Shown piece after piece: positions 1 through 4,126 of a stretch of 4,222 nucleotides of DNA (position 1 is its first letter; each line of letters opens with the position of its first letter). Origin of the DNA: Enterobacteria phage FrMerlot; the sequence record PP430144.1. The stretch is one strand, 5' to 3'. The notes beneath the pieces are model-generated. The model did no database searches. It had not been told where the DNA came from and saw only the letters and a list, made by a program, of their open reading frames with translations. Both the position numbers and the translations under genes were made by a program.

Positions 1-2
1 TC

Positions 3-15
3 CCCCCTTAGGGGG
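3..15 (+). other. 5'-terminal stem-loop in the 5' UTR (CCCCC / GGGGG stem, UUA loop)
   Basis: Direct reading: c3-c7 pairs with g11-g15 around loop t8-t9-a10. A stable GC-rich terminal hairpin is characteristic of levivirus 5' ends. Confidence 0.55.
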
Positions 16-46
16 TCACCTCACACAGCAGTATTTCACTGAGTAT

Positions 47-1339: not shown

Positions 1340-1741
1340 ATGGCAAAATTAGAGACTGTTACTTTAAGTAACATCGGGAAAGATGGAAAACAAACTCTGG
1401 TCCTCAACCCGCGTGGGGTAAATCCCACTAACGGTGTTGCCGCGCTTTCACAAGCGGGTGCAGTTCCTGCGCTGGAGAAGCGTGTTACCGTTTCGGTATC
1501 TCAGCCTTCTCGTAATCGTAAGAACTACAAGGTCCAGGTTAAAATCCAGAACCCGACCGCTTGTACTGCAAACGGTTCTTGTGACCCATCCGTTACTCGC
1601 CAGGCGTATGCTGACGTGACCTTTTCGTTCACGCAGTATAGTACCGATGAGGAACGAGCTTTTGTTCGTACGGAGCTTATCGCTCTGCTCGCTAGTCCTC
1701 TGTTGATCGATGCTATCGATCAACTGAATCCAGCGTATTGA
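1340..1741 (+). CDS. cp: Major coat (capsid) protein
   Basis: ATG at 1340-1342 to TGA at 1739-1741, 133 codons. The translation MAKLETVTLSNIGKDGKQTLVLNPRGVNPTNGVA...IDAIDQLNPAY is a Q-beta-type coat protein. The ORF-track start at 1316 is a TTG that overlaps the A2 stop and is not used here. Confidence 0.95.
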   Translation: MAKLETVTLSNIGKDGKQTLVLNPRGVNPTNGVAALSQAGAVPALEKRVTVSVSQPSRNRKNYKVQVKIQNPTACTANGSCDPSVTRQAYADVTFSFTQYSTDEERAFVRTELIALLASPLLIDAIDQLNPAY

Positions 1742-2338
1742 ACACTGCTCATTGCCGGTGGTGGCTCAGGGTCTAAACCCGATGGTCCGGTTATTATTAC
1801 TCCGGATCCACCGATAGATCCGCCGCCAGGTACAGGTAAGTATGCCTGTCCCTTCGCAATTTGGTCCCTAGAGGAGGTTTACGAGTCTCCTACTAAGAAC
1901 CGACCGTGGCCTATCTATAATGCTGTTGAACTCCAGCCCCGCGAGTTTGATGTTGCCCTTAAAGATCTTTTGGGCAATACAAAATGGCGTGATTGGGATT
2001 CACGGCTTAGTTATACCACGTTCCGCGGTTGCCGTGGCAACGGTTATATTGACCTTGATGCGAGTTATCTTGCTACTGATCAGGCTATGCGTGATCAGAA
2101 GTACGACATTCGCGAAGGCAAGAAACCTGGTGCTTTCGGTAACATTGAGCGATTCATTTATCTTAAGTCGATAAATGCTTATTGCTCTCTTAGCGATATT
2201 GCGGCCTATCACGCCGATGGTGTGATAGTTGGCTTTTGGCGCGATCCATCTAGTGGTGGTGCCATACCGTTTGACTTCACTAAGTTTGATAAGACTAAAT
2301 GTCCCATTCAAGCCGTGATAGTCGTTCCTCGTGCTTAG
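1340..2338 (+). CDS. A1: A1 read-through protein (coat protein plus C-terminal extension; minor capsid protein)
   Basis: I translated 1742-1969 by hand and found no stop; the track ORF 1970-2338 is in the same frame (position mod 3 = 2). Total 332 aa if the UGA is read as a sense codon. The extension (TLLIAGGGSGSKPDGPVIITPDPPIDPPPGTGKY...PIQAVIVVPRA) matches the Q-beta read-through domain. Confidence 0.9.
1739..1741 (+). other. Leaky UGA stop codon of the coat gene (programmed read-through site)
   Basis: The frame stays open for 199 further sense codons after this UGA, ending at TAG-TAA at 2336-2341. In Q-beta this UGA is suppressed at low frequency by host tRNA-Trp to make A1. Confidence 0.85.
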
Positions 2339-2352: not shown

Positions 2353-2372
2353 ATGCATGTCTAAGACAGCAT
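2353..2372 (+). promoter_or_regulatory. Translational operator hairpin (coat-protein binding site) over the replicase initiation codon
   Basis: AUGCAUGUCUAAGACAGCAU folds as an 8-bp stem (2353-2356 and 2358-2361 paired with 2365-2372), a bulged A at 2357 and a 3-nt UAA loop at 2362-2364. The replicase AUG (2357-2359) sits inside the stem. This is the Q-beta-type operator architecture. Confidence 0.8.
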
Positions 2373-4126
2373 CTTCGCATAACTCTCTTAGCGCACAATT
2401 GCGCCGAGCCGCGAACACAAGAATTGAGGTCGAAGGTAACCTCGCACTTTCCATTGCCAACGACTTACTATTGGCTTATGGTCAATCGCCATTTAGCTCT
2501 GAGGCTGAGTGTATTTCATTCAGCCCGAGATTCGACGGGACCCCGGATGACTTTAGGATAAGTTATCTTAAAGCCGAGATCATGTCGAAGTATGACGATT
2601 TCAGCCTAGGTATTAATACCGAAGCTGCTGCCTGGGAAAAGTTCCTAGCAGCAGAGGCTGAATGTGCTTTAACGAACGCTCGTCTCTATAGGCCTGACTA
2701 CAGTGAGGATTTCAATTTCTCACTGGGCGAGTCATGTATTCACATGGCCCGCAGAAAAATAGTCAAGTTAATAGGAGACGCTCCGTCCGTTGAGGGTATG
2801 TTGCGTCACTGCCGTTTCTCTGGTGGTGCCACAACAACGAATAACCGTTCGCACGGTCATCCGTCCTTCAAGTTTGCGCTTCCACAAGCGTGTACGCCTC
2901 GGGCTTTGAAGTATGTTTTAGCTCTTAGAGCTTCTACACACTTCGATATCAGAATTTCTGATATTAGCCCTTTTAATAAAGCAGTTACTGTACCTAAGAA
3001 CAGTAAGACCGATCGCTGTATTGCTATCGAACCTGGTTGGAATATGTTTTTTCAACTAGGCATCGGTGGTATCTTACGTGATCGGTTGCGGTGCTGGGGT
3101 GTCGATCTGAATGATCAGACGATAAATCAGCGTCGCGCTCACGAAGGCTCCGTTACTAATAACTTAGCAACGGTTGATCTCTCAGCGGCAAGCGATTCTA
3201 TATCTCTTGCTCTCTGTGAGCTCTTATTGCCCCCAGGCTGGTTTGAGGTTCTTATGGATCTCAGATCACCTAAAGGGCGGTTGCCTGACGGTAGTGTTGT
3301 TACCTATGAGAAAATATCCTCTATGGGTAACGGATACACATTCGAGCTTGAGTCGCTTATCTTTGCTTCTCTTGCTCGTTCCGTTTGTGAGATACTGAAC
3401 TTAGACTCGTCTGAGGTCACTGTTTACGGAGACGATATTATTTTACCGTCCTGTGCAGTACCTGCCCTTCAGGAAGTTTTTAAGTATGTTGGTTTTACGA
3501 CCAATACTAAAAAGACTTTTTTTGAGGGGCCGTTCAGAGAGTCGTGCGGTAAGCACTACTATTCTGGCGTAGATGTTACTCCCTTTTACATACGTCACCG
3601 TATAGTGACTCCTGCCGATTTAATACTGGTTTTGAATAACCTATATCGGTGGGCCACGATTGATGGCGTATGGGATCCTAGGGCCCATTCCGTGTACCTC
3701 AAGTATCGTAAGTTGTTGCCTAAACAGCTGCAACGTAATACTATACCTGATGGTTACGGTGATGGAGCCCTCGTCGGATCGGTCCTGATCAATCCTTTCG
3801 CGAAAAACCGCGGGTGGATCCGGTACGTACCGGTGATCATAGACCATACAAGGGACCGAGAGCGTGTTGAATCGGGGTCGTATCTTTACGACCTCTTTTC
3901 GCGTTGCTTTTCGGAAAGTAACGATGGGTTGCCTCTAAGGGGTCCGTCGAGTTGCGATTCTGTAGATCTATTTGCTATCGATCAACTTATCTGCAGGAGT
4001 AATCCTACAAAGATAAGCAGATCTACTGGTAAATTCGATATACAGTATATCGCGTGCAGTAGCCGTGTTCTGGCACCCTACGGGGTCTTCCAGGGCACGA
4101 AGGTTACATCTCTACACGAGGTGTAA
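2357..4126 (+). CDS. rep: RNA-dependent RNA polymerase (replicase beta subunit)
   Basis: ATG at 2357 (MSKTASSHNSL...) to TAA at 4124-4126, 589 aa. The catalytic YGDD motif is encoded at 3425-3436 (tac gga gac gat) in frame. The translation is recognisably Q-beta replicase. An in-frame ATG three codons upstream (2348) overlaps the SD and is less likely to be the start. Confidence 0.93.
   Translation: MSKTASSHNSLSAQLRRAANTRIEVEGNLALSIANDLLLAYGQSPFSSEAECISFSPRFDGTPDDFRISYLKAEIMSKYDDFSLGINTEAAAWEKFLAAEAECALTNARLYRPDYSEDFNFSLGESCIHMARRKIVKLIGDAPSVEGMLRHCRFSGGATTTNNRSHGHPSFKFALPQACTPRALKYVLALRASTHFDIRISDISPFNKAVTVPKNSKTDRCIAIEPGWNMFFQLGIGGILRDRLRCWGVDLNDQTINQRRAHEGSVTNNLATVDLSAASDSISLALCELLLPPGWFEVLMDLRSPKGRLPDGSVVTYEKISSMGNGYTFELESLIFASLARSVCEILNLDSSEVTVYGDDIILPSCAVPALQEVFKYVGFTTNTKKTFFEGPFRESCGKHYYSGVDVTPFYIRHRIVTPADLILVLNNLYRWATIDGVWDPRAHSVYLKYRKLLPKQLQRNTIPDGYGDGALVGSVLINPFAKNRGWIRYVPVIIDHTRDRERVESGSYLYDLFSRCFSESNDGLPLRGPSSCDSVDLFAIDQLICRSNPTKISRSTGKFDIQYIACSSRVLAPYGVFQGTKVTSLHEV

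What the first reader, a model, noticed from the sequence alone, without database searches (positions are those of the whole stretch)
1754..1840. Gly/Pro-rich hinge in A1 with a probable 9-nt in-frame insertion relative to Q-beta
Just after the leaky stop the extension encodes AGGGSGSKPDGPVIITPDPPIDPPPGTG, a flexible Gly-rich then Pro-rich linker. As I recall Q-beta, the matching stretch is shorter by three residues around DGPVIITPDPP. That agrees with this A1 being 332 rather than 329 aa, and with the replicase start lying about 5 nt downstream of where I recall it in Q-beta. A linker-length polymorphism in the hinge connecting the capsid to the read-through domain would be tolerated and could mark a distinct lineage.
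Basis: partly seen in the sequence, partly recalled or inferred. Interest (0 to 1): 0.4.

Follow-up and report, generated by a model that had tools for sequence, protein, structure and literature searches.

The report
Length-variable hinge in Qβ-like phage A1
The flexible tether joining the coat domain to the read-through domain of this Qβ-like phage's minor capsid protein is three amino acids longer than in Qβ, an ordinary strain-level polymorphism already in GenBank (phage FrMerlot), though it sits at the one place in the genome where Qβ-type phages repeatedly change length.

Summary
Observation confirmed, and ordinary. The window is the complete genome of Enterobacteria phage FrMerlot (Qubevirus). 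Its A2, A1 and replicase proteins are identical to the deposited WZB35614, WZB35615 and WZB35617, all on a 4222-nt contig.

A1 (1340-2338) is 332 aa against 329 in Qβ. The extra 9 nt are not one block. They are GGT (1784-1786) plus ATT ACT (1796-1801). Removing these two blocks reproduces Qβ exactly, whereas any single 9-nt block leaves 5 mismatches in 18.

Natural isolates form a nested series:
- 0 extra codons: Qβ, TW18, VK, BZ1, BR12.
- +1: HL4-9, FrSangria.
- +2: GIII_C.
- +3: the window, FrHibiscus and FrBurgundy (one clade, 98% bootstrap).
- +5 and +9: two metagenomic variants.

Among 12 Qβ-group genomes this hinge is the only coding site with any indel.

The insertions lie at the C-terminal end of the disordered linker (WTLLIAGGGSGSKPD^PVI^), just before the proline-rich PDPPIDPPPG. 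At RNA level they lie in the loop and at the 5' foot of a predicted hairpin (GAUCCGG/CCGGAUC). That hairpin is nested in a stem where Gly codons pair with Pro codons.

The inserted codons look like tandem triplet duplications, consistent with replicase slippage. Evidence for RNA-level constraint is moderate. No phenotype is shown. Interest is low.

The parts
1340..1741 (+). Coat protein CDS, ending in the leaky UGA at 1739-1741
   Evidence: ORF list and translation. Pfam Levi_coat matches residues 2-133, E=3.8e-60. Coordinates are identical to the FrBurgundy annotation.
1340..2338 (+). A1 read-through protein CDS, 332 aa with UGA read as Trp
   Evidence: Translation. Identical to WZB35615.1, the FrMerlot A1. 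Pfam Read-through PF16814 matches residues 154-331, E=2.8e-94. PDB 3RLC/3RLK match, E=1e-124.
1739..1801 (+). Inter-domain linker WTLLIAGGGSGSKPDGPVIIT (residues 134-154). It is the counterpart of the Qβ linker WTLLIAGGGSGSKPDPVI.
   Evidence: It lies between the two Pfam domains. The Qβ segment 133-150 (mature numbering) is reported as disordered in AlphaFold 3 models in PMC12469967 and mapped to sequence. It is the most variable 12-column stretch of A1.
1784..1786 (+). Insertion 1: GGT (Gly149). It is GAT in FrHibiscus and FrBurgundy, where it is a tandem copy of the preceding GAT.
   Evidence: Codon alignment and MAFFT DNA alignment. Present only in the window, FrHibiscus and FrBurgundy.
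1796..1801 (+). Insertion 2: ATT ACT (Ile153 Thr154), inside G(TTA)3CT at 1790-1801. The exact placement can slide by a few nt within the repeat.
   Evidence: Intermediate states are HL4-9 ATC ATT, FrSangria ATC ACT and GIII_C ATT ACT CCT.
1802..1831 (+). Pro-rich segment PDPPIDPPPG, invariant in length and nearly invariant in sequence in the Qβ group. It opens the read-through domain, whose N-terminal part is reported to form a polyproline-II helix.
   Evidence: Alignment. The crystal construct 3RLC/3RLK starts at SKPDPVIPDPPIDPPPG. The PPII helix is described in PMC8067240 and PMC6526423, citing Rumnieks & Tars 2011.
1757..1764 (+). RNA outer stem, 5' arm GGUGGUGG (Gly codons)
   Evidence: Predicted to pair with 1820-1827 in the 201-nt fold, in every isolate and by RNAalifold.
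1820..1827 (+). RNA outer stem, 3' arm CCGCCGCC (Pro codons)
   Evidence: All its four-fold-degenerate sites are invariant in 12 isolates.
1769..1780 (+). Small hairpin GGGU-CUAA-ACCC
   Evidence: It has one compensatory pair, U-A to G-C, in the VK/BZ1 group. It is duplicated in the +9 variant L018.
1783..1810 (+). Inner hairpin: 5' arm UGGUCCGG (1783-1790), 11-nt loop UUAUUAUUACU (1791-1801), 3' arm CCGGA(U)CCA (1802-1810). Insertion 2 is in the loop and insertion 1 is in the 5' arm.
   Evidence: Fold of the window. The homologous stem GAUCCGG/CCGGAUC has a loop of 5 nt (Qβ, TW18, VK, BZ1, BR12), 8 nt (HL4-9, FrSangria) or 11 nt (GIII_C, FrHibiscus, the window).

Best explanation
The region encodes the flexible tether of the minor capsid protein A1. 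A Gly/Ser-rich disordered segment is followed by a Pro-rich segment that opens the globular read-through domain displayed on the outside of the capsid.

The few residues between the invariant GGGSG and PDPPIDPPPG anchors are a length- and sequence-hypervariable spacer: 7 aa in Qβ and 10 aa here. In the lineage leading to this phage (FrMerlot) the spacer grew stepwise by codon-sized tandem duplications. GAT became GAT GAT and then GAT GGT. ATT became ATT ATT, with ACT alongside. These are most likely replicase slippage or copy-choice events.

The insertions persist because the spot is permissive on two levels. In the protein it is the end of a disordered linker. In the RNA it is the loop and the 5' foot of a local hairpin, so the frame and the surrounding base-paired Gly-codon/Pro-codon domain are both preserved.

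The +3 state is a shared derived character of the FrMerlot, FrHibiscus and FrBurgundy clade. It is probably neutral or nearly so.

Shown: the indels, their positions, their phylogenetic nesting and their uniqueness as coding indels. Inferred: slippage as the mechanism, RNA-level constraint and near-neutrality.
For: - Identity of the genome: A1, A2 and replicase are identical to the FrMerlot proteins on a 4222-nt contig.
- Two-site insertion with an exact match to Qβ once removed.
- Nested series 0, +1, +2, +3 on a hinge-masked tree, with bootstraps of 70, 97 and 98.
- Independent +5 (L017) and +9 (L018) variants. L018 is a 27-nt tandem duplication.
- The hinge is the only coding indel site among 12 genomes and the most variable 12-residue stretch of A1, with 7 of 12 columns variable against a mean of 1.6.
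- It lies between the Pfam Levi_coat (2-133) and Read-through (154-331) matches.
- The Qβ linker 133-150 is reported as disordered (PMC12469967), and that segment ends exactly at ...DPVI.
- The hairpin with a variable loop is predicted in every isolate and in 200-nt context.
- The native hinge RNA is more stable than 95-99% of synonymous recodings.
- Silent four-fold sites in 1757-1831 are 1 of 14 variable, against 36.6% genome-wide (P=0.015).
- The lab-selected synonymous mutation C1760U lies at the foot of the outer stem and is predicted to stabilise it from -35.1 to -38.5 kcal/mol.
Against: - No phenotype was measured, so neutrality is assumed and not shown.
- Covariation support for the RNA structure is weak. 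Only 2 of 31 pairs show compensatory change, and most never vary.
- The Gly/Pro/Asp codon composition alone already gives about -22 to -28 kcal/mol.
- The isolates are related, so the recoding and silent-site tests are not independent replicates.
- For the window itself the recoding result is borderline (z=-1.8, 4.6%), and its short-hairpin z-score is only -1.9.
- Slippage is inferred only from the tandem-copy look of the inserted triplets.
- My own structure model failed (pLDDT 35), so linker disorder rests on a published AlphaFold 3 description and on reviews.
Confidence: 0.78

Rival explanations
1. Adaptive tether tuning. Linker length is selected because it sets the reach or mobility of the read-through domain, and so affects entry efficiency, particle stability or escape from a host or environmental factor. 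The stepwise lengthening would then be directional selection in this lineage.
For: - The series 0, +1, +2, +3 is nested and monotonic along the lineage.
- The hinge core also differs between the window and FrHibiscus at 3 of 21 nt, against about 3% genome-wide.
- Point mutations in the A1 read-through domain are known to alter entry and burst size (PMC12469967).
Against: - Only four or five events are involved, so a monotonic trend can arise by chance.
- Lengths of 7 to 16 residues all occur in nature.
- The segment is reported as disordered.
- There are no functional data for any length variant.
Confidence: 0.12
2. An RNA element comes first. The hinge-coding RNA (1757-1827) is a functional structured element, for example one that modulates UGA read-through, replication or packaging. 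On this view loop size is the selected trait and the protein change is a passenger.
For: - Frozen silent sites (1 of 14 variable, P=0.015).
- Stability beyond synonymous recodings.
- Stems are preserved in all length variants, including +5 and +9.
- The lab-selected synonymous C1760U is predicted to strengthen the outer stem.
Against: - Loop sizes of 5, 8 and 11 nt, and a loop containing a whole extra hairpin, all occur, so loop size itself looks unconstrained.
- The structure starts 13-15 nt after the UGA. From general knowledge, known read-through stimulators sit about 8 nt after the stop.
- No Rfam family matches.
- Covariation is weak.
Confidence: 0.08
3. A single 9-nt insertion or a recombinational patch from another phage.
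For: The net difference from Qβ is exactly 9 nt.
Against: - The best single-block alignment needs 5 mismatches in 18, and the two-block alignment needs none.
- GIII_C, HL4-9 and FrSangria have insertions at site 2 without site 1.
- The inserted codons copy their neighbours and do not look like foreign sequence.
Confidence: 0.01
4. Sequencing or assembly artefact in a low-complexity repeat.
For: The site contains short tandem triplets, (TTA)3.
Against: - The insertions are in frame.
- The +3 length is found in three separately deposited isolates with different hinge sequences, DGPVIIT and DDPVVVT.
- Intermediates come from the USA and Japan.
Confidence: 0.01

Closest known systems
Qβ minor capsid protein A1 (UniProt Q8LTE1, 329 aa; read-through domain structure PDB 3RLC/3RLK)
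   Same: - Same gene, produced by the same leaky-UGA read-through.
- Same GGGSG and PDPPIDPPPG anchors.
- The read-through domain is nearly identical (E=1e-124 to 3RLC).
- The genome is about 94-96% identical.
   Different: - The spacer is SKPDGPVIIT (10 aa) and not SKPDPVI (7 aa).
- Window-unique substitutions are Gly149, Ala169 (KYACPF) and Ser183 (YESPT).
A1 of Enterobacteria phages FrHibiscus and FrBurgundy (WZB35611, WZB35607; 332 aa)
   Same: - Same +3 hinge length with insertions at the same two sites.
- Sister clade to the window at 98% bootstrap, and 97% genome identity.
   Different: - The hinge sequence is DDPVVVT against DGPVIIT, which is 3 nt differences in 21.
- They also carry a cluster of 5 substitutions in AVELQPRE, giving AARLPLRQ.
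Intermediate-length natural Qβ isolates: HL4-9 (330 aa), FrSangria (330 aa), GIII_C (331 aa)
   Same: The insertions are in the same hairpin loop after GTT ATY.
   Different: They have one or two extra codons only, and none has the GAT/GGT codon at site 1.
M11 and MX1 A1 (329 aa)
   Same: Same overall architecture, with Gly-rich then Pro-rich segments. A hairpin is predicted at the equivalent place (CGGGUCC/GGACCCG) inside a Gly/Pro-codon outer stem.
   Different: - About 70% genome identity.
- The hinge has one codon fewer (Ala) and one more (Gly) than Qβ, for no net change.
- The hairpin is in a different register.
Metagenomic Qβ-like variants P0001/L017 (+5 aa) and P0018/L018 (+9 aa)
   Same: Extra residues lie at the same spot between GGGSG and PDPPIDPPPG, and the RNA stems are retained.
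   Different: The insertions are larger. L018 is a 27-nt tandem duplication that adds a second small hairpin. L017 extends the inner stem with AUCAAC/GUUGAU.

Membership tests
Qubevirus (Allolevivirus) A1 read-through protein | A coat cistron ending in a leaky UGA, followed in frame by an extension of about 195-200 codons | tested here: met
   UGA at 1739-1741. The frame stays open to 2338, giving 198 further codons.
Qubevirus (Allolevivirus) A1 read-through protein | The extension is homologous to the Qβ read-through domain (Pfam PF16814; PDB 3RLK) | tested here: met
   PF16814 at 314.5 bits against a cut-off of 27, residues 154-331. 3RLC E=1.1e-124.
Qubevirus (Allolevivirus) A1 read-through protein | Genome order A2, then coat/A1, then replicase, on an RNA of about 4.2 kb | tested here: met
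   ORFs at 57-1319, 1340-1741/2338 and 2357-4126, co-linear with 13 annotated Qubevirus records.
Qubevirus (Allolevivirus) A1 read-through protein | UGA is actually read through (as Trp) and A1 is incorporated into virions | not testable with these tools
   Established for Qβ in the literature cited in PMC6071253. Not measured for this isolate.
Enterobacteria phage FrMerlot (deposited isolate) | Proteins identical to the deposited record, and the same genome length | tested here: met
   A1 = WZB35615.1, A2 = WZB35614.1 and replicase = WZB35617.1, all exact matches on a 4222-nt contig. The nucleotide record itself could not be fetched.
Disordered flexible inter-domain linker | Low-complexity Gly/Ser/Pro composition lying between two folded domains | tested here: met
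   Residues 134-153 fall between the Pfam matches 2-133 and 154-331. The sequence is read directly.
Disordered flexible inter-domain linker | Lack of fixed structure | tested here: inconclusive
   My own AF2 model was unusable (pLDDT 35). Published AlphaFold 3 models call Qβ 133-150 disordered (PMC12469967). Reviews report no A1 density in cryo-EM (PMC8067240).
Disordered flexible inter-domain linker | Length and sequence variability among close homologues | tested here: met
   The spacer is 7, 8, 9, 10, 12 or 16 residues. It is the most variable stretch of A1 and the only coding indel site.
Conserved functional RNA structure | Thermodynamic stability beyond what composition or coding gives | tested here: met
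   201-nt fold z=-3.4 for the window and -6.8 for Qβ. The hinge domain is in the lowest 0.6-4.6% of synonymous recodings.
Conserved functional RNA structure | Compensatory base changes across relatives | tested here: inconclusive
   2 of 31 pairs show changes on both sides, and 177 of 500 shuffles do as well. The covariation score was reached by 1 of 500 shuffles.
Conserved functional RNA structure | Suppressed synonymous variation | tested here: met
   1 of 14 four-fold sites is variable, against 214 of 585 genome-wide. P=0.015, in the lowest 1.6% of sliding windows.
Read-through-stimulating downstream RNA structure | A stable structure beginning within about 8 nt of the stop codon (spacing taken from general knowledge of viral read-through signals) | tested here: not met
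   The outer stem begins at 1755-1757, which is 13-15 nt after the UGA at 1739-1741.

The most novel reading that the evidence does not exclude
The hinge-coding RNA (1755-1830) may be a selected structural domain in its own right. In it the Gly codons (GGUGGUGG) pair with the Pro codons (CCGCCGCC) and enclose two hairpins. On this reading the RNA fold, and not only protein tolerance, decides where the A1 tether can change length (only in the inner hairpin's loop or foot), and it may help explain the Gly-then-Pro composition of the hinge. The lab-selected silent mutation C1760U would then act by strengthening this domain.
Probability: 0.3. Interest if true: 0.4.

Novelty: already known. Interest (0 to 1): 0.15.

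Why it matters
It matters little for biology at large. This is a strain-level length polymorphism in a known linker of a known protein, in a genome already deposited.

Practical value:
- It gives a simple lineage marker for genogroup III F-RNA phages: hinge length 7, 8, 9 or 10 residues.
- Primers or probes spanning 1780-1805 will fail or mis-size across strains.
- It points to the spot between Asp and PDPP as a naturally permissive insertion site in A1, tolerating at least +9 residues. That could help Qβ display engineering, which currently uses the C-terminus.
- It is a compact example of protein tolerance and RNA structure possibly constraining jointly where an RNA virus can gain codons.

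Tried and rejected
- Flank-anchored pattern scans of viral contigs and metagenome contigs found only Qβ-length hinges, seen as 50-nt matches.
- The AF2 model of the read-through extension, built from a 4-sequence alignment, had mean pLDDT 34.6. It was unusable, so no fold search was run and no structural claim is drawn from it.
- The primary structure paper (PMC3218364) is not held. Which hinge residues are ordered in 3RLK could therefore not be read. I relied on the construct sequence and on secondary descriptions.
- The presumed accession PP430144 is not in the phages collection, so identity with FrMerlot rests on three exact protein matches and the contig length.
- Rfam gave no family at gathering threshold.
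- The covariation analysis gave too little signal to prove the RNA structure.
- A single 9-nt block was rejected.
- A read-through stimulator was considered and set aside on spacing.
- A coat-protein operator-like hairpin was considered and rejected from general knowledge. The Qβ operator has a 3-nt loop and a bulged A, whereas this hairpin has a 5-11-nt loop of variable sequence.
- Literature searches found no paper that describes the hinge-length series.

Full report
**What the window is.** The 4222-nt window is a complete Qβ-like (Qubevirus) genome. It has A2 at 57-1319, coat at 1340-1741 ending in UGA at 1739-1741, the read-through protein A1 at 1340-2338, and the replicase from the ATG at 2357 to 4126. 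Megablast against phage records gives 97% identity to Enterobacteria phages FrHibiscus and FrBurgundy and 91.5-96% to natural Qβ isolates. The window's A1, A2 and replicase are exact matches to WZB35615.1, WZB35614.1 and WZB35617.1 of Enterobacteria phage FrMerlot, each recorded on a 4222-nt contig. The window is therefore the deposited FrMerlot genome. FrMerlot is one of four Qβ-like phages used in recent defence-system studies (PMC12169576). Its nucleotide record was not in the searchable collection.

**Checking the observation.** Positions 1754-1840 encode AGGGSGSKPDGPVIITPDPPIDPPPGTGK. I aligned A1 from the window with 13 annotated relatives. A1 is 332 aa in the window, FrHibiscus and FrBurgundy. 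It is 331 aa in GIII_C and 330 aa in HL4-9 and FrSangria. It is 329 aa in two Qβ records, TW18, VK, BZ1, BR12, M11 and MX1. The replicase start is 5 nt further along than in Qβ AB971354. That equals +9 from the hinge and -4 from a shorter 5' end.

**One correction.** The 9 nt are not one block. The codon alignment puts GGT at 1784-1786 and ATT ACT at 1796-1801, with CCG GTT ATT between them. Deleting a 3-nt block and a 6-nt block turns the window's 27 nt into Qβ's 18 nt with no mismatch. The best single 9-nt deletion leaves 5 mismatches. GIII_C, HL4-9 and FrSangria have extra codons at the second site and none at the first.

**How it arose.** I built a neighbour-joining tree on 4024 aligned positions with the hinge masked. 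It gives (GIII_C, (window, (FrHibiscus, FrBurgundy))) with 97% and 98% bootstrap. HL4-9 is sister to that group at 70%. Qβ and TW18 branch separately, FrSangria is unresolved, and VK/BZ1/BR12 and M11/MX1 lie outside. Hinge length therefore rises in nested steps (0, +1, +2, +3) toward the window, and the outgroups show that the short form is ancestral. At least four events are needed within this clade.
- Two further lineages seen only in sequencing-run assemblies carry +5 residues (ENPGPINPKPVD, L017) and +9 residues (DNPDPGGSGGNPGPIH, L018) at the same spot.
- Nearly every inserted unit is a tandem copy, exact or one base off, of its neighbour. Examples are GAT GAT (FrHibiscus) and GAT GGT (window); ATT ATT (window) and GTT GTT GTT (FrHibiscus); ATC ATT (HL4-9); and A CTC CTC CG (GIII_C). 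L018 has a 27-nt unit repeated at 22 of 27 identity. The +5 insertion in L017 shows no obvious duplication.
- This is the usual signature of polymerase slippage or copy-choice. That mechanism is an inference.

**Is the site special?** In a whole-genome alignment of the 12 Qβ-group isolates (down to 91.7% identity), the only internal indels in any coding region are those at window 1783-1801. The only other internal indel is a single base in the A2-coat spacer of BZ1. The hinge is also the most variable 12-residue stretch of A1, with 7 variable columns against a mean of 1.6. The window and FrHibiscus differ at 3 of 21 nt here, against 3% overall. All Qβ laboratory-evolution records in the collection share one length per series, which suggests such indels are rare on laboratory time scales.

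**Protein context.**
- Pfam places Levi_coat at residues 2-133 and Read-through at 154-331, so residues 134-153 are the inter-domain gap.
- A recent paper reports that in AlphaFold 3 models of Qβ A1 the linker segment 133-150 (mature numbering) is disordered (PMC12469967). That segment is WTLLIAGGGSGSKPDPVI and is followed by PDPPIDPPPG. Both insertion sites therefore lie at the C-terminal end of the disordered tether.
[quoted passage not shown] A1 extensions are reported to be invisible in cryo-EM maps (PMC8067240 and PMC6526423, citing Rumnieks & Tars 2011).
- The crystallised construct begins at SKPDPVIPDPP. I could not read which of these residues are ordered, and my own structure model failed.

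**RNA context.** The Qβ sequence GAUCCGG-UUAUU-CCGGAUC is a perfect 7-bp hairpin. It is predicted in every Qβ-group isolate with a loop of 5, 8 or 11 nt that tracks hinge length, and it persists in 200-nt folds of the window and of Qβ.
- The hairpin is nested, together with a small hairpin GGGU-NNNN-ACCC, inside an outer stem. In that stem the Gly codons GGUGGUGG pair with the Pro codons CCGCCGCC. RNAalifold recovers the same architecture.
- Insertion 2 lies in the loop. Insertion 1 lies at the 5' foot of the stem. In the window its GGU is predicted to pair with the downstream CCA, giving an 8-bp stem with one bulge.
- The +9 variant places its duplicated unit, which forms a second small hairpin, between the two arms. 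The +5 variant keeps GGUCCG/CGGAUC and adds AUCAAC/GUUGAU.
- M11 and MX1 have a different 7-bp hairpin at the equivalent place.

**How strong is the RNA evidence?** It is moderate.
- In favour: native hinge RNA is more stable than 95.4-99.4% of 1000 synonymous recodings in each of ten isolates.
- In favour: four-fold-degenerate sites in 1757-1831 are 1 of 14 variable, against 214 of 585 genome-wide (P=0.015, lowest 1.6% of sliding windows).
- In favour: the synonymous mutation C1760U, co-fixed with A1930G in Qβ evolved at high host density and attributed by its authors to RNA structure, is the third base of the Ala codon at the 5' foot of the outer stem. It is predicted to lower the domain's energy from -35.1 to -38.5 kcal/mol.
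- Against: only 2 of 31 pairs show compensatory change, and most never vary.
- Against: the peptide's codon composition alone already gives about -22 to -28 kcal/mol.
- Against: the sequences are related, and no Rfam family matches.
- The structure starts 13-15 nt after the UGA, which is further than typical read-through stimulators. I do not propose that role with any confidence.

**Verdict.** The finding is real and correctly interpreted in its essentials, but ordinary. It is a codon-sized length polymorphism in the disordered tether of a well-known protein, in a genome already in GenBank with A1 annotated at 332 aa, and it is shared with two sister isolates. The difference is two sites and several events, not one 9-nt insertion. 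This spot is the single coding place where Qβ-type genomes change length. And it coincides with the loop of a predicted hairpin inside a Gly-codon/Pro-codon stem, so protein and RNA tolerance may jointly define it. I found no paper that describes the series, but it is evident from deposited annotations.

Noticed in passing
window 1-20: The 5' end begins TCCCCCCTTAGGGGG, as in FrBurgundy. Complete Qβ-type genomes begin GGGG(G)ACCCCCC. The window therefore lacks about 5 terminal bases and its first T is probably not genuine. The 3' end (...CCCTCTCTCCTCCCA) is complete.
   Followed up: partly
window 1757-1764 with 1820-1827: The Gly-rich and Pro-rich halves of the hinge are complementary at RNA level (GGUGGUGG pairs with CCGCCGCC). 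The amino-acid composition of the linker and a stable RNA stem are therefore encoded by the same bases.
   Followed up: partly
window 1910-1951 (A1 residues 191-204): This is a second hypervariable patch of A1, with 6 of 12 columns variable. FrHibiscus and FrBurgundy read AARLPLRQ where the window and Qβ read AVELQPRE, by substitutions only. The experimentally selected Qβ mutation A1930G (Q195R, mature numbering) falls in this patch, at a column whose natural states are P, Q, R and S.
   Followed up: partly
window 1844-1846 and 1886-1888: Two A1 residues are unique to this genome among the 14 compared: Ala169 (KYACPF; others Thr) and Ser183 (YESPT; others Pro or Ala). The A-to-G change at 1844 turns a predicted U-A pair of the next hairpin (1829-1851) into U-G and does not break it.
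   Followed up: no
Qβ nt 1760 = window 1756: The synonymous mutation C1760U reported in Qβ experimental evolution maps to the last base of the Ala codon immediately 5' of the outer stem. It is predicted to extend that stem. M11 and MX1 naturally have U at the equivalent positions, forming U-G pairs.
   Followed up: partly
public records: Three database oddities. NC_001890.1, labelled Escherichia phage Qbeta, has the same length, match coordinates and score as MX1 AF059242.1 and is only 74.5% identical to this Qβ-like genome. LC710219 labels the coat coordinates 'lysis protein A2'. The 90%-identity protein cluster holding the replicase also contains many bacterial EF-Ts proteins, which I suspect reflects fused replicase/EF-Ts constructs.
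   Followed up: no
L019 520-610 (P0003, about 49% identical read-through domain): A more distant, possibly genogroup-IV-like relative has a shorter hinge (SGGGGENPSPTDPKQPAS) that lacks the PDPPIDPPPG run altogether. The polyproline segment is therefore not universal in the genus.
   Followed up: no
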